From assembly GCA_963664395.2 (NCBI GenBank), contig OY761159.2:3392001-3456000 (forward strand): a stretch of 64,000 nucleotides of DNA. The letters are read 5' to 3'. The notes beneath the pieces were generated by a model. The model ran no database searches, was not told the DNA's origin, and saw only the letters and a list, made by a program, of their open reading frames with translations. Below are positions 11,715 through 17,927 of the stretch, piece by piece. The stretch's first letter is position 1, and every line of letters starts with the position of its first letter. A program made the position numbers and the translations under genes. Source of the stretch: Candidatus Binatia bacterium (GTDB lineage Bacteria > Desulfobacterota > Binatia > Bin18).

Positions 11715-12068
11715 ATGGAGGCCGGTGTGAAGAGCCCGGTTGTCATTATCGGCGCGGGACCGGCCGGGCTCACCGCCGTGTATGATCGATCCTATCAGGA
11801 GCATGTGGCCCTGATCCGTCACTATCTGGCAACGTTCCCCAATTTTCAGACGATTGGTCGGAATGGACTGCATCGCTATAATAATCAGGATCATTCAATG
11901 CTGACCGGGGTCTATGCCGCTCGCAATATTGTCGGCGGGCAGCATGATGTCTGGACGGTCAATACCGAAACCACCTATCACGAAGAAGGACAACATCCTG
12001 ACGCGCAGGCCGGAGACCGCTCGGTTCCGGTGCGGAAAGTATCCTCGCCAGGCCGGCTGTCTCCATAG
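11715..12068 (+). pseudogene. Internally deleted FAD-dependent oxidoreductase (protoporphyrinogen oxidase/UDP-galactopyranose mutase-like)
   Basis: N-terminal VVIIGAGPAGLTA joined directly to C-terminal VYD...GRNGLHRYNNQDHSMLTG. Confidence 0.8.
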
Positions 12069-12087
12069 TGCTGAAACGCCGCAGCCC

Positions 12088-12903
12088 ATGTCCGAACGCA
12101 GGTTTGGCCACATTCCAGGCTATCCGGTTGGCAGTTGTTTCGCCTCTCGCCGTGATCTCTCCAGGGCCGGGGTGCATCGAGTGCGCATCGCCGGTATTTC
12201 CGGCAGCGGGCGGGAGGGCGCGGACTCGGTTGTCCTGGCTGGCGGCTATGAAGATGGAGAGGATTATGGGCAGATGATCTTCTACACCGGCCACGGCGGT
12301 CGCGACCCGCAGACCCGCGAGCAGGTTCGTCACCAGGCACTGACCCGTGGGAATTTGTCTTTGGCCCGGAACCGATTGCACGGCCTGCCTGTTCGCGTTA
12401 TCCGTGGTGCCGGTTTTCGTTCTCCCTACTCGCCCGATTCCGGCTACCGCTATGACGGCCTGTATACGGTTGACGACTATTGGCGGGGCATTGGGCGAGC
12501 GGGCTTTTTTATTTGGCGTTTTCGGCTGGTCACAATGGGTGAAGACACAGCGCAGCAGGAACGAGTCGTGCAAGAAACACTCCATGCCCAGGAACTCAAG
12601 CAGCTCTACCACTACCACTGTCAGATATGTCGCGTCCAACTCAAAGGCCCTGCCGGGCCGTATGCCGAAGCGGGGCATATCCGCCCGCTCGAAATCCCGC
12701 ACAACGGCCCTGACACGCCGGAGAATATGCTGTGTCTATGTCCGAATTGTCATATCCTGCTGAGCATCGGCGGGGTGGGTATTGCTGATGATTTTGAGCT
12801 GATCGGGCGATCGGGGACGTTGTACGTTGATTTTCGGCACCGGATCAACATCGAGCATATGCGTTATCGGCGGCAACATTATCCGGTTGACTCTGATATG
12901 TGA
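12088..12903 (+). CDS. SRA/YDG-HNH modification-dependent (5mC) restriction endonuclease, TagI/Sco5333-like
   Basis: FGHIPG, GADSVVLAGGYED, YTGHGG, PVRVIRG, YRYDGLY; CQIC, EAGHIRPL, NMLCLCPNCH. Confidence 0.9.
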   Translation: MSERRFGHIPGYPVGSCFASRRDLSRAGVHRVRIAGISGSGREGADSVVLAGGYEDGEDYGQMIFYTGHGGRDPQTREQVRHQALTRGNLSLARNRLHGLPVRVIRGAGFRSPYSPDSGYRYDGLYTVDDYWRGIGRAGFFIWRFRLVTMGEDTAQQERVVQETLHAQELKQLYHYHCQICRVQLKGPAGPYAEAGHIRPLEIPHNGPDTPENMLCLCPNCHILLSIGGVGIADDFELIGRSGTLYVDFRHRINIEHMRYRRQHYPVDSDM

Positions 12904-12931
12904 GGAGTGCCGGCTCGAAGCCCGTAAGAAA

Positions 12932-13050
12932 TCCCCTCCTCGGAGGGGTGACGCAAAAAGGAACCCACCCCGGCCCTTCGGGCCACCCTTCCCAAGAGGG
13001 GAGTTTTTCCTATCCCCTCCTCGGAGGGGTGCCGCGGAGCGGTGGGGTGG
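12932..13050. repeat. Cluster of GC hairpin REP-like repeats; related unit at 13922-13954
   Basis: cccctcctcggaggggtg twice; ccaccccggcc...ggccaccc. Confidence 0.7.
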
Positions 13051-13090
13051 GTTCCCCCAGGTAGGAAAGAAAAAAAGGGAGAGACCAGCG

Positions 13091-13906: not shown

Positions 13907-14055
13907 ACGGGCCGGGAGAAAACCCACCCCGGCCTGCGGCCACCCCTCCTAAGGGTACTGTTCTAATTTCCTCCCAAACAGCTCACTTTCTGCGCGGACG
14001 GCCTAATTTGGGTAATAATGGGCAGCCCGCCCATGGGGAGCGCGTATCAAGAGTC

Positions 14056-14463
14056 TTAATATCTGCACCAGCGTGCATGTTTGGCGAGTTCAAGCGCGTG
14101 CTGAGTCTGTTCTTCTTCAGACGGTAATTCGGACGGTAAGATAATATCAGCGTGATAGAGATTGTCATCTTGAGGAGAGGCAACCACTCGGCGCTTATTT
14201 GTTGTAGCCTGCCCAACCGTGATAATTGCCCACCCGTAGAATGATCTGTTTGGACCGCGTTCTTCTGCCCGTTTCTCGGCAATCCGAATGGCCTCATGTT
14301 GTGGGGCGATAGTCAGCCTGTCAGAAGACAGATGAGAAATACCCTCTCTTTCTAAAAACACTGACAGGGGAATCTCGTTCCGGTCTGCGCGTTTTGCATC
14401 CCTACTTGAAAACACACTACGACCAAGCTCCTCATTGGGAGCAATCTCTGAGGGTATGGGCAA
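14056..14463 (-). CDS. Hypothetical protein, possible ADP-ribosyltransferase-fold toxin
   Basis: TTG start 5 nt after the upstream stop; ELGRSV / LSSDR / YHADI motif spacing. Confidence 0.6.
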   Translation of the reverse strand: MPIPSEIAPNEELGRSVFSSRDAKRADRNEIPLSVFLEREGISHLSSDRLTIAPQHEAIRIAEKRAEERGPNRSFYGWAIITVGQATTNKRRVVASPQDDNLYHADIILPSELPSEEEQTQHALELAKHARWCRY

Positions 14464-14468
14464 AGCGT

Positions 14469-15176
14469 TTAGCCCTCAAACTGCCCGAGGGCGCTGAGAG
14501 CTTCGTACAGAAATCCGTCGGGCAGAATATTCGCCGTGGAATACCAAGCACGGCGAGAATGATCTGGAGCGCTGACAAGACAGAGCGCCCCTCCATCCGG
14601 CTCGCATAGTACGGATATCGCAATCTTGGGAGCCTTTGAGGCTTGTATAGTAATAGCACCGTTCGGCATAGGATAGACTTCAAAGCGACGTGGCAAGATA
14701 TTGAACATTGTTTTTAGTAACCGTTCCGCGTTGTTTAAGGCGGTCTCTGTCGGTATCGGAAAATCTTGTTCACGCGCTTCGTCTTGGCATTCTCTCAAAT
14801 CCTCCAAGGCATCGTTGAGCTCAGGGACAGATTCGGGAGGTGTTAAAATCCATTCTTGTGGGGAGTGGCCTCGTTTGCTGGGGAACACAGAAAACGTACT
14901 CGAAATTGGGCGATAGTAGGCGGCTACAATCGCAGGGTCATAGATTTCTTTTAGGGATTGGTCCCCGCCGTGTGAGGAGACCCATCGCTCCATAATCTTA
15001 AAGGCAGACTCGGCAAGTATATCTTTGTCAAAGGACACCCAAGCCGTGTTCCAAATTGAGTGTGGGTCTATGGCCACAGTAGTATCATCTACCTCCCTGG
15101 CTGCTCGTAGCTTATTAAAATACTCGAGGTCAGATAATCCAATGTTACTCATCGTGTATGTGAACTCTTCACTCAT
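14469..15176 (-). CDS. Hypothetical protein, possible antitoxin
   Basis: ATGA overlap with upstream gene; acidic; C-terminal alpha/beta domain PIPTETALNNAERLL...VYPMPNGAITI. Confidence 0.65.
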   Translation of the reverse strand: MSEEFTYTMSNIGLSDLEYFNKLRAAREVDDTTVAIDPHSIWNTAWVSFDKDILAESAFKIMERWVSSHGGDQSLKEIYDPAIVAAYYRPISSTFSVFPSKRGHSPQEWILTPPESVPELNDALEDLRECQDEAREQDFPIPTETALNNAERLLKTMFNILPRRFEVYPMPNGAITIQASKAPKIAISVLCEPDGGALCLVSAPDHSRRAWYSTANILPDGFLYEALSALGQFEG

Positions 15177-15478
15177 GACGATTTACCTGGAAGGTGAGTT
15201 AATTGTTGTTGAATCATATCTATGAGCCGTCGAGCGAGCGCCGGGGTGATGTGGAACTGGCCGACACATTTGCGATAGGCTGGTGTCAAGGCGGACCCGT
15301 CTTGGTCGTTGAGAACAGGAGGGGTCGTCGAGAACATCTGTAAGATGAATGACTCATCTGGCACCAGAAGAGCGCTGACATGGTCGCAGCCATAGACGGG
15401 CACGTCTTTCGTATCATAGGTGACAGGGAGCGTGATTTGCTGCGGTTTTCCTGATGGTACGGTTGTATCGTCTGCCAT
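15173..15478 (-). CDS. DUF3467-like small protein
   Basis: AAGGAAG RBS; VYGCDHV...ESFILQMF..PP...VGQFHITPALARRL pattern. Confidence 0.6.
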   Translation of the reverse strand: MADDTTVPSGKPQQITLPVTYDTKDVPVYGCDHVSALLVPDESFILQMFSTTPPVLNDQDGSALTPAYRKCVGQFHITPALARRLIDMIQQQLTHLPGKSS

Positions 15479-15630
15479 GCTGCTTCCTTTCTTTGAAGGG
15501 GCACTTGCACCAATAGGGCACTAAGCCGGCCCCTTTGGAGCACGAACGTCCTAGAGCTGTCAACCATGTGGGTGTAGGTAAATAGGTATATTCCCTCCCA
15601 AGAAGGGATTTGTAAGATCAAAAAACCATC

Positions 15631-17148
15631 TCAGCGCGTCCAGGCCAGCCACTTGGTGAAGAGCGATTTGACCCTGGGGGTCAGTCGGGTGCGATTATAG
15701 GCGTCGGCGGCCCGTTTTATTGCTTCGGCCTGGGTCGGATAGGCATGAATGGTTCTGGCCAGGGTGCCGAGCCCCAGGCCGCCAACCATAGCCAGGGTCA
15801 GCTCCGAGATCATCTCACCCGCATGGCGGGTCACCATCGTTGCGCCCAGAATGGTATCCTTGCCGGCCTGGGTGTGGATTTTCACAAAGCCTTCGGTATC
15901 GCCTTCGAGCACGGCCCGGTCTACCTGCCCCATCTCCTGGTAAAAGGTCCGGATGGCAATGCCCTGTTTTTCCGCCTCATGTTCATACAGACCGACATGC
16001 GCGATTTCAGGGTCGGTATAGGTACACCACGGCACGGTGAGGGCGCTCGCCTTTGCCCGTCCGACGAACAAGGTGTTTTGGATCACAATACGGGCCAGGG
16101 CATCCGCCATATGGGTAAATTTATACGGCGAGCAAATATCACCCGCGGCATAAATACGTGGGTTGGTCGTCTGGAGGCGGTCATCGACCTTCACTCCTTG
16201 TCTGGTATCAAAATCTACCCCGACGGCCTCCAGGTTCAGCCCTTCGACGTTGGGCGCGCGGCCTACTCCGAGCAGGACGGCATCTACGCGGACCTCCTCA
16301 CGCTGCCCATCTTTTTCAACCTGAATTACCTTGTCCTGATCGTCTCGTGCCACCCCGGTGATCTGACAGCCAAGGACGAGCGAGACGCCGTCTCGAATCA
16401 ACGCGGCCTGGATGAGGGCTGCGGCGTCCTTGTCTTCGCGGATGAGGATCTGCGGCATCACTTCCAGGAGGGTGACCTGCGACCCGAAGCGGGCAAACGC
16501 CTGGGCCATTTCACAGCCGATCGGGCCGGCGCCGATGATGGCCAGCCGTTCGGGCAGCTCGGTTAAGGAGAAGACGGTTTCGTTGGTTAAATAGCCGGCT
16601 TCCGCCAAGCCGGGAATCGGCAGGGGCATGGCCCGCGCGCCCGTGGCGATGACCGCCCGACGGAAACGCAGTTGCCGGCCGTCGACCTCCACGCTGTCCG
16701 AATCGACAAAACGTCCCTCGCCCAGAAAGACATCCACGCCAAGTTCGTCACGATAGCGCAGCGCGGAATCATGCGGGCTGATTTCCGAGCGGAGCCGCCG
16801 CATCCGTTCCATCACCGCCGGGAAATTCACTCGGGTTCCGGGTGGCACTTCGACTCCATACTGACCAGCGTCCCGGACATCCGCATACGCCCGGGCCGCG
16901 CGGAGGAGGGCTTTGGACGGCACGCAGCCGACATTCAAGCAGTCGCCACCCAAATGTTCCCGTTCAACCAAGGCGACTTTGGCCCCGAGTCCCGCCGCGC
17001 CGGCTGCCGTAATCAGACCGGCAGTACCTCCACCCAGGACGACCAGATTGTAACTCGGGGCGGGCTCCGGGTTCGTCCAGTCATGGGGGTGGACGTTGGC
17101 AACAAGGGTCTGGTTATACGCGTCTTCAGGGAATGCAACGGTCGTCAT
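15631..17148 (-). CDS. Mercuric-reductase-like pyridine nucleotide-disulfide oxidoreductase (no C-terminal Cys-Cys)
   Basis: GGGTAG, GGDCLNVGCVPSK, GAGPIGCE, HAYPTQAE; AGGAGG RBS. Confidence 0.9.
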   Translation of the reverse strand: MTTVAFPEDAYNQTLVANVHPHDWTNPEPAPSYNLVVLGGGTAGLITAAGAAGLGAKVALVEREHLGGDCLNVGCVPSKALLRAARAYADVRDAGQYGVEVPPGTRVNFPAVMERMRRLRSEISPHDSALRYRDELGVDVFLGEGRFVDSDSVEVDGRQLRFRRAVIATGARAMPLPIPGLAEAGYLTNETVFSLTELPERLAIIGAGPIGCEMAQAFARFGSQVTLLEVMPQILIREDKDAAALIQAALIRDGVSLVLGCQITGVARDDQDKVIQVEKDGQREEVRVDAVLLGVGRAPNVEGLNLEAVGVDFDTRQGVKVDDRLQTTNPRIYAAGDICSPYKFTHMADALARIVIQNTLFVGRAKASALTVPWCTYTDPEIAHVGLYEHEAEKQGIAIRTFYQEMGQVDRAVLEGDTEGFVKIHTQAGKDTILGATMVTRHAGEMISELTLAMVGGLGLGTLARTIHAYPTQAEAIKRAADAYNRTRLTPRVKSLFTKWLAWTR

Positions 17149-17307
17149 GCGGCTCCTCCTGCTGTGCTCCAGGCTCCTCAGAACAGGGTACGCGGGATAG
17201 GACGCTTTACAAGGAGGGGAGGGCAGCGAAAGGGCCACACTCGACTCTGACCTTCCCCTCTCGGGAGGGGATATGGGCAGGCTGCCCCGTCGTGCCTGAG
17301 CCGGTTT

Positions 17308-17828: not shown

Positions 17829-17927
17829 GAGCAGACTTGAGCAGATTTGAGCAGATTTGAGCAGACTTGAGCAGATTTGAGCAGACTTGAGCAGATTTGA
17901 GCAGACTTGAGCAGACTTGAGCAGACT
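17829..17927. repeat. 10-bp tandem repeat GAGCAGA(C/T)TT x10
   Basis: Directly visible; variant order C,T,T,C,T,C,T,C,C,C. Confidence 0.95.

What the first reader, a model, noticed from the sequence alone, without database searches (positions are those of the whole stretch)
14056..15478. Candidate new three-gene toxin / antitoxin / partner defence system led by a DUF3467-like gene
Seen: three tightly coupled minus-strand ORFs (ATGA overlap, then a 5-nt gap), visibly more AT-rich than their flanks, about 1 kb from an SRA-HNH nuclease. The last gene (135 aa) has an N-terminal Arg (ELGRSV), a central Ser strand (LSSDR) and a late His (YHADI), the R-S-H spacing expected for Tse2-like ADP-ribosyltransferase folds. 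The middle gene has an acidic N-half and a compact C-terminal alpha/beta domain. Known: toxin-antitoxin-chaperone systems such as CmdTAC combine an ART toxin, an antitoxin and a SecB-like chaperone. Inference: a DUF3467-like protein may fill the chaperone/sensor role here, giving an undescribed TAC-like anti-phage module.
Basis: partly seen in the sequence, partly recalled or inferred. Interest (0 to 1): 0.78.

Follow-up and report, generated by a model that had tools for sequence, protein, structure and literature searches.

The report
Three-gene toxin-antitoxin-like module, uncharacterised families
Three tightly packed small genes look like a toxin, its binding antitoxin and an optional helper gene, all from protein families nobody has described, so this is a new variant of a familiar kind of bacterial self-poisoning and defence module.

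Summary
Three co-oriented minus-strand genes are present: g1 15173-15478, g2 14469-15176 and g3 14056-14463. They have the stated ATGA overlap and 5-nt gap, and lower GC than the flanks.

None of the three matches Pfam, NCBIfam or PADLOC. The conserved core is a pair: the C-terminal ~115 aa of g2 plus g3.
- g3 lies directly downstream of g2 in 57 of 80 related loci, from at least 7 phyla.
- A complex model supports binding (0.90 against 0.00 for the best control).
- g3 is often broken or lost while g2 survives.
- One locus fuses the DarG antitoxin to the g2 domain.

I read g2 as the antitoxin and g3 as an enzymatic toxin.

g3 folds confidently (pLDDT 94) but matches no solved structure. The ADP-ribosyltransferase (ART) idea has only sub-threshold hints.

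g1 is a divergent DUF3467 relative, shown only by a transitive profile search, and it is rare. In 34 of 80 loci a different, unrelated ~230-aa gene ("gU") holds that position. gU goes with a long N-terminal extension on g2 and with an intact g3. So a three-part architecture is real, but it is not a SecB-type TAC system.

Toxicity and anti-phage function are untested.

The parts
15173..15478 (-). g1: a 101-aa accessory gene and a divergent relative of DUF3467 (PF11950). It is the first gene of the operon.
   Evidence: The ORF and the ATGA overlap with g2 are. No direct Pfam hit. The family is very small: 8 clusters, and 17 hits at E<=1e-3 among 1.84 billion representatives. The four short distant hits P0083, P0086, P0088 and P0089 all carry PF11950 above its cut-off, and they align over the whole length (A5). 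A protein-atlas search gives a weak lead to a cluster in which 31% of members carry DUF3467, score 0.85.
14844..15176 (-). N-terminal extension of g2 (residues 1-111). It is acidic, poorly conserved and modelled with low confidence.
   Evidence: pLDDT is below 57 over residues 1-110 (the model is of P0032, which differs from the window's protein at residue 26 only). Only 2-5 close homologues share this part. pI is 4.88. In related loci a long extension goes with an upstream gene: g2 median 229.5 aa with gU, 142 aa without.
14469..14843 (-). Conserved C-terminal domain of g2 (residues 112-235, plus the stop codon). This is the proposed toxin-binding antitoxin domain, with motifs LPRRFEVYPMP, LLCEPDGGALCLV and LPDGF.
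   Evidence: It is the only part conserved across 37 clusters and 80 loci. Its pLDDT is above 90, with three helices, a five-stranded sheet and a C-terminal helix. Median pI is 4.8 over 37 sequences. The predicted interface with g3 includes the FEVYP strand. No Pfam, NCBIfam or PADLOC family matches, and Foldseek finds no PDB match at E<=0.001.
14056..14463 (-). g3: a 135-aa proposed toxin of an uncharacterised family, with an enzyme-like set of conserved polar residues (R15, S46, D48, R49, R69, N101, H104, D106).
   Evidence: The ORF and TTG start are. There are 31 homologue clusters; the invariant residues are. The AF2 model has pLDDT 94.3 and pTM 0.85. No Pfam hit in 0 of 31 members. No PDB or BFVD structure matches at E<=0.001. 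g3 lies directly downstream of g2 in 57 of 80 loci: intact in 44, partial in 13.
15479..15630 (-). Intergenic region upstream of g1, presumed to hold the operon's promoter.
   Evidence: It is a 152-nt gap between the stop of the pyridine-nucleotide disulphide oxidoreductase gene (15631-17238) and the g1 start. The consensus scan found no sigma-70-like site here and no terminator-like site after g3, so the promoter is inferred only.

Best explanation
The locus is a type II-style toxin-antitoxin module built from two uncharacterised protein families, extended by an accessory first gene.

g3 is the toxin: a small enzyme whose conserved R15, S46/D48/R49, R69, N101 and H104/D106 probably line an active site. 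Its fold is either new or a very divergent ART-like core.

g2 is the antitoxin. The beta-sheet face of its conserved acidic C-terminal domain, including the FEVYP strand, clamps helix 1, the 28-40 loop and the C-terminal helix of g3, and so keeps it inactive. g3 is made by translational coupling to g2.

The variable, probably disordered N-terminal extension of g2 is the handle for the upstream gene product. That product is the DUF3467-like g1 here and the unrelated gU in most relatives. It would stabilise or gate the antitoxin, as a chaperone or sensor does in TAC systems. When the antitoxin is lost, g3 is freed and stops growth, plausibly as an abortive defence.

Shown in silico: the gene arrangement, the conservation of the g2-g3 pair, predicted binding, the decay pattern, the DarG fusion, and the link between an upstream gene and the extension.

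Inferred: toxicity, which partner is the toxin, the role of g1, and any anti-phage function.
For: - Adjacency. A g3 homologue lies directly downstream of the g2 domain in 57 of 80 loci (44 intact, 13 partial, 23 absent), in MAGs titled as at least 7 phyla.
- Coupling. The distance from the g2 stop to the g3 start is -4 in 22 and -1 in 4 of 43 loci. The window has a 5-nt gap.
- Binding. The complex model of g2 residues 112-235 with g3 scored 0.90, 0.89 and 0.90, with the best of 3 controls at 0.00. The runs agree in 100% of contacts, and the partner's pLDDT is at least 91. That mark was reached by 116 of 157 solved complexes and by 2 of 215 mismatched pairs; the counts hold only roughly because my own alignments were used. 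No similar solved complex turned up, so a pass from memory is unlikely.
- Polarity. g2 stands alone or beside a broken g3 in 36 of 80 loci, with split g3 reading frames in L047, L052, L056 and L076. The g2 domain is acidic (median pI 4.8), while g3 is near neutral (median 6.9).
- Fusion. In L060 a full-length DarG (PADLOC 438 bits, residues 5-345) is fused to the g2 domain. It sits between DarT (PF14487, 211 bits) and an intact g3.
- Third gene. An upstream gene gU is present in 34 of 80 loci. With gU, g3 is intact in 30 of 34; without gU, in 14 of 43. g2 is at least 204 aa with gU and has a median of 142 aa without. In phylogenetically independent pairs, intact g3 follows gU in about 5 of 7 and goes the other way in about 0.1, with median sign-test p 0.06.
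- Context. TA or restriction genes lie next to the module in the loci I scanned: DarG (L001); HsdM, HsdS, an Rv0623-like protein and MNT (L026); AbiEi/AbiEii (L059); HicB and DUF4411 (L042); HepT (L018); an HNH nuclease (L043); and DUF1156 methyltransferases (L012, L030). An SRA-HNH nuclease lies 1.15 kb away in the window.
Against: - No toxicity, binding or defence has been measured.
- The loci were collected with g2 as the anchor. Copies with a broken g2, or g3 without g2, could not appear, so the argument that g3 decays first is biased.
- g2 has no recognisable DNA-binding domain of the kind most type II antitoxins use for autoregulation.
- g3's putative catalytic residues are not among the confidently placed interface residues, so how binding would inhibit it is open.
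- The g1 family is tiny. By profile it is absent from all 80 related loci. Its functional link to g2 rests on the ATGA overlap, on three contig-length coincidences between g1 and g2 homologue clusters, and on one independent DUF3467-like case, L058, which scores below the Pfam cut-off at 17.8 bits against 25.
- The association between gU and an intact g3 is only borderline in independent contrasts.
- The window's other neighbours are metabolic genes, not a defence island.
- No homologue of g2 or g3 was found in the plasmid collection, and none of g3 in the phage collection.
Confidence: 0.6

Rival explanations
1. One reading: g3 is a Tse2-like or R-S-E-like ADP-ribosyltransferase toxin, g2 is its antitoxin, and the DUF3467-like g1 acts as a SecB-type chaperone and phage sensor. 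That would make it a CmdTAC analogue.
For: - R15 lies on predicted strand 1, S46 on strand 2, and H104-x-D106 at the start of a later strand. All are conserved.
- Among the few named sub-threshold structural neighbours are ART-superfamily proteins: TkoKptA 9ld4_C (TM 0.43, probability 0.38, E 0.62), a baculovirus RNA 2'-phosphotransferase (TM 0.36), and a mycobacteriophage ADP-ribosyltransferase (TM 0.34).
- In L060 the g2 domain is fused to DarG, whose macrodomain removes ADP-ribose.
- A weak g2 neighbour is an 87-residue chain of the TreTu/TriTu ART-toxin/immunity complex, 7zhm_C (TMt 0.50, E 0.35). I did not establish which of the two proteins that chain is.
- The link between a third gene and an antitoxin extension resembles chaperone addiction. 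The TAC definition is taken from the abstract of 10.1101/2024.02.24.581848.
Against: - There are 0 Foldseek matches at E<=0.001 in either library, and every TM-score is below 0.5.
- No Pfam ART, RES or DarT hit in 0 of 31 members.
- hhalign of g3 against DarT gives probability 0.35%.
- There is no E-x-E or Q-x-E motif.
- No SecB signal for g1 appears in Pfam at E<=10 or in a PDB profile search. The g1 fold was not predicted.
- The extension is N-terminal and the accessory gene is first, unlike the TAC systems described.
- g1 is not conserved with the pair: 0 of 80 loci by profile.
Confidence: 0.2
2. One antitoxin, two toxins. The upstream gene (gU in most loci, g1 here) is itself a second toxin or effector. 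The g2 N-terminal extension neutralises it while the C-terminal domain neutralises g3.
For: - L060 has exactly this layout with a known toxin: DarT, then DarG::g2-domain, then g3.
- gU has an enzyme-like set of invariant polar residues (D36, N116, N189, H191, R192) in the motifs NPD, GIN and NIHRD.
- The presence of gU tracks the extension.
Against: - The extensions in gU loci are nearly unalignable and low in complexity, unlike a specific neutralising domain.
- g1 is small, with few conserved polar residues outside C31/D32 and the QMFSTTPP stretch.
- DUF3467 has no known activity. One literature search for 'DUF3467' found a single paper that only mentions the name; I saw only the search listing.
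Confidence: 0.12
3. Reverse polarity, or not a TA at all. Either the g2 C-terminal domain is the toxic or active partner and g3 is its inhibitor or immunity protein, or the two form a harmless two-subunit enzyme or regulator.
For: - Binding is predicted, but nothing shows which partner is harmful.
- g2 has no DNA-binding domain.
- A variable N-terminus with a conserved C-terminal domain and a small downstream gene is also the layout of polymorphic toxins with their immunity genes (established knowledge, recalled rather than tested here).
- The anchoring bias of the locus set could hide orphan g3 genes.
Against: - A stand-alone g2 domain of 124-160 aa, with no g3, occurs in many genomes (19 of the 43 loci without gU). 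That is hard to reconcile with g2 being an unneutralised toxin.
- The g2 domain is fused to a known antitoxin.
- g3, not g2, carries the dense set of invariant polar residues.
- g2 homologues have no secretion or delivery domains (Pfam).
Confidence: 0.08

Closest known systems
Type II toxin-antitoxin systems (antitoxin gene first, toxin translationally coupled behind it)
   Same: - Two small co-oriented genes with overlapping or nearly touching stop and start codons.
- An acidic upstream partner predicted to bind the downstream one directly.
- Orphaned upstream partners and decayed downstream partners.
- Placement among other TA and restriction genes in several genomes.
   Different: - Neither protein belongs to a described toxin or antitoxin family: Pfam, NCBIfam and PADLOC give no hit, and sequence and fold searches of the PDB give none.
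- No DNA-binding domain was found in the antitoxin.
- Toxicity is untested.
Toxin-antitoxin-chaperone (TAC) systems such as HigBAC and CmdTAC. I read the abstracts of 10.1101/2024.02.24.581848 and PMC11618068.
   Same: - A TA pair plus a third small gene.
- The antitoxin carries an extra, poorly structured extension whose presence tracks that of the third gene.
- The third-gene position is modular across relatives: gU, a DUF3467-like gene, another 235-aa gene in L050, or DarT in L060.
   Different: - No SecB-like sequence signal in g1 or gU.
- The extension is N-terminal rather than a C-terminal ChAD element.
- The third gene is first in the operon.
- The toxin is not HigB or CmdT.
- Chaperone or sensor activity is purely inferred.
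DarTG (the DarT DNA ADP-ribosyltransferase with the DarG macrodomain antitoxin)
   Same: In L060 a complete DarT-DarG pair is physically merged with this module, because DarG is fused to the g2 domain and is followed by g3. In L001 a DarG gene lies 1.7 kb from a solo g2.
   Different: - The window's g2 has no macrodomain, and g3 is not DarT (no Pfam hit; hhalign probability 0.35%).
- The fusion shows a shared antitoxin context. It does not show shared chemistry.
DUF3467 (PF11950), a family of unknown function
   Same: The g1 profile reaches four proteins that carry PF11950 above its cut-off (45.4, 29.7, 27.8 and 32.1 bits against 25). They align with g1 along the whole length, including the xEFxLxF and C-terminal helix regions.
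   Different: - g1 and its 7 nearest clusters do not match the Pfam model themselves: 0 of 8 at E<=10.
- They carry their own invariant GCD and LQMFSTTPP motifs.
- I could find no function for DUF3467 in print. One search found one paper that only mentions it; I saw the search listing only.

Membership tests
Type II toxin-antitoxin system | Adjacent, co-oriented small genes expressed as one unit | tested here: met
   In the window there is an ATGA overlap between g1 and g2 and a 5-nt gap between g2 and g3. In 43 related loci the g2-to-g3 distance is -4 in 22 and -1 in 4.
Type II toxin-antitoxin system | The antitoxin protein binds the toxin protein directly | tested here: met
   Tested in silico only. 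The complex model scored 0.90, with the best of 3 controls at 0.00, 100% contact agreement between runs, and partner pLDDT of at least 91. That mark was reached by 116 of 157 solved complexes and 2 of 215 mismatched pairs. This supports binding but does not show it.
Type II toxin-antitoxin system | The toxin arrests growth when expressed alone, and the antitoxin rescues it | not testable with these tools
   This needs expression experiments. The only indirect evidence is that g3 is partial or absent beside a retained g2 in 36 of 80 loci, and that locus set is biased because g2 was the anchor.
Type II toxin-antitoxin system | The antitoxin carries a DNA-binding domain for autoregulation (usual, not universal) | tested here: not met
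   g2 has no Pfam or NCBIfam domain, and Foldseek finds no DNA-binding fold among its matches. The N-terminal half is modelled with low confidence.
TAC (toxin-antitoxin-chaperone) systems, including CmdTAC | A SecB-like chaperone as the third component | tested here: not met
   Tested at the sequence level only. Neither g1 nor its 7 nearest homologue clusters match SecB in Pfam at E<=10. A PDB profile search with the extended alignment A5 returns no SecB.
TAC (toxin-antitoxin-chaperone) systems, including CmdTAC | The antitoxin carries a chaperone-addiction (ChAD) extension recognised by the chaperone | tested here: inconclusive
   g2 has a low-confidence extension, and across loci its presence tracks an upstream gene.
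ADP-ribosyltransferase superfamily (R-S-E, Tse2-like) | The ART fold | tested here: inconclusive
   The g3 model is confident (pLDDT 94.3). There are 0 Foldseek matches at E<=0.001 in PDB or BFVD. The best ART-related neighbours are KptA at TM 0.43, a viral Tpt1 at 0.36 and a phage ART at 0.34, all below the usual 0.5.
ADP-ribosyltransferase superfamily (R-S-E, Tse2-like) | The catalytic motif: Arg on strand 1, Ser-x-Ser on strand 2, and Glu (E-x-E or Q-x-E) on strand 5 | tested here: not met
   R15 and S46 are conserved on predicted strands 1 and 2. The third position is H104-A-D106, and there is no S-T-S. The motif definition is recalled from the literature, not taken from a call.
ADP-ribosyltransferase superfamily (R-S-E, Tse2-like) | Sequence membership in a known ART, RES or DarT family | tested here: not met
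   Pfam finds no such family in 0 of 31 g3 homologues at E<=10. NCBIfam and PADLOC find none. hhalign against DarT gives probability 0.35%.
DUF3467 (PF11950) | A match to the Pfam model at or above its gathering score | tested here: not met
   0 of 8 g1-family members match at E<=10. Of the 6 closer representatives scanned, 0 match.
DUF3467 (PF11950) | Homology to bona fide members by profile search | tested here: met
   The g1 profile finds P0083, P0086, P0088 and P0089 at E between 1e-6 and 8e-4 in a library of 1.84 billion proteins. All four carry PF11950 above its cut-off.
Named anti-phage defence systems (PADLOC-DB v2.0.0) | Any component matches a model in the library | tested here: not met
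   g1 and g3 have no hits. g2 has only PycC at E 0.016. gU has no hits, and an L012 g2 homologue has only PDC-M32A at E 0.0014. Newer libraries such as current DefenseFinder were not available.

The most novel reading that the evidence does not exclude
g3 founds a new family of small enzymatic toxins, with either a new fold or a minimal, highly divergent ART-like core. The family is held in check by a new antitoxin domain. Non-SecB accessory proteins (gU in most lineages, DUF3467-like proteins in this one) act on the antitoxin's disordered N-terminal extension as interchangeable chaperone-sensors. That would make this a second, independently evolved class of tripartite toxin-antitoxin-'chaperone' defence modules. 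It would also give DUF3467 its first function.
Probability: 0.2. Interest if true: 0.8.

Novelty: new variant of a known kind. Interest (0 to 1): 0.55.

Why it matters
If the reading is right, it adds to the TA and defence repertoire a toxin family, an antitoxin domain and two alternative accessory families (gU and a DUF3467 branch). None of them has a Pfam, NCBIfam, PADLOC or PDB counterpart.

The link between a third gene and an antitoxin extension would show that chaperone- or sensor-gated TA logic is not tied to SecB.

The DarG fusion gives a natural handle for testing whether the toxin uses ADP-ribose chemistry.

All 80 related loci retrieved are metagenome-assembled genomes. The g2 domains are 35-58% identical to the window's across at least 7 phyla, and g2 and g3 have no plasmid relatives and g3 no phage relative in the collections searched. 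This points to horizontal spread in uncultured communities that standard defence catalogues do not cover.

Tried and rejected
- Direct family assignment failed. Pfam (E up to 10), NCBIfam and PADLOC gave nothing usable for g1, g2, g3 or gU.
- PDB sequence and profile searches for A1, A2, A3, A4 and A5 gave only chance-level hits. The TRIM21 B-box match to g2, at E 0.0013, covers just 26 residues rich in Cys and Gly, and I rejected it.
- Foldseek gave no match at E<=0.001 for g3 against PDB or BFVD, or for g2 against PDB.
- I tested whether g1 and gU are the same family in disguise. hhalign gives probability 0.9%, so I rejected that.
- g3 as a DarT relative: hhalign gives probability 0.35%, so I rejected that too.
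- The L001 macrodomain ORF that clustered with g2 in my BLAST graph is a separate DarG gene joined through spurious low-complexity links. It is not a g2 relative.
- The four long proteins hit by the g1 profile (P0084, P0085, P0087, P0090) match through 6-8 short stretches. They carry PKD, secretion-tail or laminin-G domains, and I set them aside as spurious.
- The protein-atlas lead from g3 to DUF6098 (score 0.91, 160 shared features, flagged by the tool as often chance) had no Pfam support and no paper.
- tblastn of g3 and g2 against plasmids, and of g3 against phages, found no match.
- The promoter and terminator scan found nothing informative, and Rfam found nothing over 9-20 kb.
- Flanking direct repeats that would mark an insertion were not found. 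Only GC-rich palindromic elements appear, near the DUF2797 gene.
- The listing of cluster members could not be run, so the source names and accessions of the homologues stayed unseen.
Full report
**1. The observation**

The ORF list and the sequence read confirm three minus-strand genes.
- g1: 15173-15478, 101 aa, ATG start.
- g2: 14469-15176, 235 aa. Its ATG overlaps the g1 stop as ATGA.
- g3: 14056-14463, 135 aa, TTG start, 5 nt after the g2 stop.

GC is 0.48-0.53 across the triplet, against 0.555-0.66 on both sides.

On the far side of a DUF2797 gene lies an SRA-HNH nuclease gene, 11914-12903, with SAD_SRA at 151.9 bits plus HNH. Upstream of g1 lie a pyridine-nucleotide disulphide oxidoreductase gene and other metabolic genes. 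The window itself is therefore not a defence island.

R15 is in at least 90% of 31 homologue clusters, and S46 and H104 are invariant.

**2. Family assignment**

None of the three proteins matches Pfam (E up to 10), NCBIfam or PADLOC. Nor do their homologues: 0 of 8 for g1 and 0 of 31 for g3. PDB sequence and profile searches give only chance-level hits.

Homologue searches found 31 clusters for g3, 37 for g2 and only 8 for g1.

In g2 only the C-terminal ~115 residues are conserved. The N-terminal half varies, and many homologues are stand-alone proteins of 130-143 aa.

**3. Structures**

g3 folds with high confidence: pLDDT 94.3 and pTM 0.85, in the order beta-alpha-beta-alpha-beta-beta-beta-alpha-beta.

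Foldseek finds no match at E<=0.001 in the PDB or in BFVD. The few named neighbours with the higher TM-scores include ART-superfamily proteins:
- KptA/Tpt1, 9ld4_C: TM 0.43, probability 0.38.
- A baculovirus RNA 2'-phosphotransferase: TM 0.36.
- A mycobacteriophage ADP-ribosyltransferase: TM 0.34.

All of these are below the usual thresholds. The ART idea is therefore a lead and not a result. It has no E-x-E motif, no sequence relation to ART, RES or DarT families, and hhalign against DarT gives probability 0.35%.

The g2 model is of P0032, which differs from the window's protein at residue 26 only. It is confident only for residues ~118-232, which form three helices, a five-stranded sheet and a C-terminal helix. 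Residues 1-110 are low-confidence. Foldseek against the PDB again finds nothing significant. One weak neighbour is an 87-residue chain of the TreTu/TriTu toxin-immunity complex (TMt 0.50, E 0.35).

**4. Related loci**

A scan of one genome per species with the g2 alignment found 107 relatives, and the best 80 were kept as loci L001-L080. All are metagenome-assembled genomes. Their titles name Nitrospirales, Acidobacteriota orders, Chloroflexota, Latescibacterota, Rhodothermales, Binatia, and Alpha- and Gammaproteobacteria.

Profile searches over all ORFs of these loci gave the following.
- A g3 homologue lies directly downstream of g2, on the same strand, in 57 of 80 loci: intact in 44, partial in 13 and absent in 23. 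Clear splits occur in L047, L052, L056 and L076.
- The g1 profile hits 0 of 80.

The g2 stop and g3 start overlap by 4 nt in 22 of 43 loci and by 1 nt in 4 of 43. g3 starts with GTG or TTG in 32 of 43.

Solo g2 genes are common. In five Nitrospirales or Nitrospira loci, for example, g2 faces a convergent dehydrogenase-like ORF that I identified from its sequence only.

**5. Binding and polarity**

A complex model of g2 residues 112-235 with g3 scored 0.90, 0.89 and 0.90, against 0.00 for the best of three controls. The runs agree in 100% of contacts and the partner's pLDDT is at least 91. That mark was reached by 116 of 157 solved complexes and 2 of 215 mismatched pairs, and the counts hold only roughly because I supplied my own alignments. 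The model supports binding but does not show it.

The interface uses g2's most conserved strand (FEVYP) and its sheet. On g3 it uses helix 1, the 28-40 loop and the C-terminal helix.

Four observations make g2 the antitoxin and g3 the toxin in my reading.
- The g2 domain is acidic, with median pI 4.8, while g3 is near neutral at 6.9.
- g2 survives alone, while g3 is broken or lost.
- g3 carries the denser set of invariant polar residues.
- In L060 a full-length DarG antitoxin is fused to the g2 domain, between DarT and an intact g3.

The caveat is that the loci were anchored on g2, so orphan g3 genes could not be seen.

**6. The third gene**

g1 belongs to a very small family: 17 hits at E<=1e-3 among 1.84 billion representatives. 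Four of those hits are long, repetitive and spurious.

The four short distant hits all carry DUF3467 above the Pfam cut-off, and they align with g1 end to end. So 'DUF3467-like' is right, but only by transitive homology.

The one literature search for DUF3467 found a single paper that merely mentions the name. I saw only the search listing.

In the related loci the upstream position is usually held by something else. A conserved ~230-aa protein, 'gU', with motifs NPSILNPDFL, GINPK and NIHRD, occupies it in 34 of 80 loci, and fragments of it occur in 3 more. gU matches no Pfam, NCBIfam, PADLOC or PDB entry and is unrelated to g1 (hhalign probability 0.9%).

Other occupants of the position:
- A DUF3467-like gene in L058, at Pfam E 0.0036, below the cut-off.
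- Another 235-aa gene in L050.
- DarT in L060.

gU goes with a long g2 and an intact g3.

| | g2 length | g3 intact |
|---|---|---|
| with gU | at least 204 aa, median 229.5 | 30 of 34 |
| without gU | median 142 aa | 14 of 43 |

On a tree of the g2 domain the two states are interleaved: at least 7 changes are forced by well-supported branches, and the best tree needs 22. In independent pairs, intact g3 follows gU in about 5 of 7 and goes the other way in about 0.1, with median sign-test p 0.06.

The extensions themselves are almost unalignable.

I read this as a three-part module that repeatedly decays to a lone antitoxin domain. Its first gene works through the antitoxin's N-terminal extension. 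Whether that gene is a chaperone or sensor, or a second toxin as in L060, is open.

**7. Context and spread**

In the loci whose neighbours I scanned (a chosen subset, not all 80), the module sits beside:
- DarG (L001);
- a type I restriction-modification system with an Rv0623-like antitoxin and MNT (L026);
- AbiEi/AbiEii (L059);
- HicB and DUF4411 (L042);
- HepT (L018);
- an HNH nuclease (L043);
- DUF1156 methyltransferases and NOV_C proteins (L012, L030, L069).

The DUF1156-type neighbour recurs in 8 loci.

No homologue of g2 or g3 was found in the plasmid collection, and none of g3 in the phage collection.

**8. Comparison with known systems**

The pair works like a type II TA system and meets the arrangement and predicted-binding criteria. 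Toxicity is untested, and no DNA-binding domain was found.

The three-gene logic resembles TAC systems. In those, a SecB-like chaperone stabilises the antitoxin through a ChAD element and can sense phage proteins (abstracts of 10.1101/2024.02.24.581848 and PMC11618068).

It is not a member of that group, however. There is no SecB signal, the extension is N-terminal, the extra gene comes first, and the toxin is of a different family. It is also not in PADLOC v2.

I therefore rate it a new variant of a known kind. The toxin, the antitoxin domain and the accessory families are all undescribed as far as these libraries and my three literature searches show.

**9. What stayed unchecked**

- Newer defence-system libraries.

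Noticed in passing
L007, L012, L024 and others (for example L012:4937-5641): An undescribed ~230-aa protein family, 'gU', lies directly upstream of g2 in 34 of 80 loci. Its invariant residues are D36, G114, N116, N189, H191 and R192, in the motifs NPD, GIN and NIHRD. It has no Pfam, NCBIfam, PADLOC or PDB match. Its residue pattern looks enzyme-like.
   Followed up: partly
L060:4240-6780: A Dehalococcoidia MAG carries DarT, then a 487-aa fusion of full-length DarG with the g2 C-terminal domain, then an intact g3. One antitoxin polypeptide is flanked by two putative toxins.
   Followed up: partly
L001-L080 (record titles): All 80 related loci are metagenome-assembled genomes from at least 7 phyla. 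Their g2 domains are 35-58% identical to the window's, which suggests horizontal spread. One title (L065) names a sponge, and two name Candidatus Porisulfidus. Several genomes hold two copies (contigs OY761822 with L029/L031 and OZ241915 with L038/L056, plus a decayed second copy in L040).
   Followed up: partly
window 11914-12903 (+): An SRA (SAD_SRA, 151.9 bits) plus HNH nuclease gene, the architecture of modification-dependent restriction enzymes. It also gives a weak hit to the phosphorothioate-DNA restriction model NF045808 (31.6 bits, below the cut-off of 180).
   Followed up: partly
window 12931-13055 and 13921-13950: GC-rich palindromic repeat elements lie on both sides of the DUF2797 gene: a 43-nt inverted repeat, a 24-nt direct repeat, and a shared 14-mer at 12962 and 13921. 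They look like REP- or MITE-like intergenic elements. They also suggest that the long ORF starting at 12827 overstates the length of the DUF2797 gene.
   Followed up: no
window 17829-17927: A 10-nt unit (GAGCAGACTT) is repeated 9.9 times in tandem, with 93% matches. It lies at the 5' end of the SnoaL-like ORF and upstream of the divergent FAD-oxidoreductase gene.
   Followed up: no
window 14116-14139: A 12-nt tandem duplication inside g3 encodes the repeated LPSE in '...ILPSELPSEEEQ...'. This stretch is a variable loop where the close homologues are shorter (alignment A1).
   Followed up: no
L026:3295-8428, L032: A solo g2 gene is embedded in a type I restriction-modification operon (HsdM and HsdS), together with an Rv0623-like antitoxin and an MNT-type nucleotidyltransferase.
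   Followed up: partly
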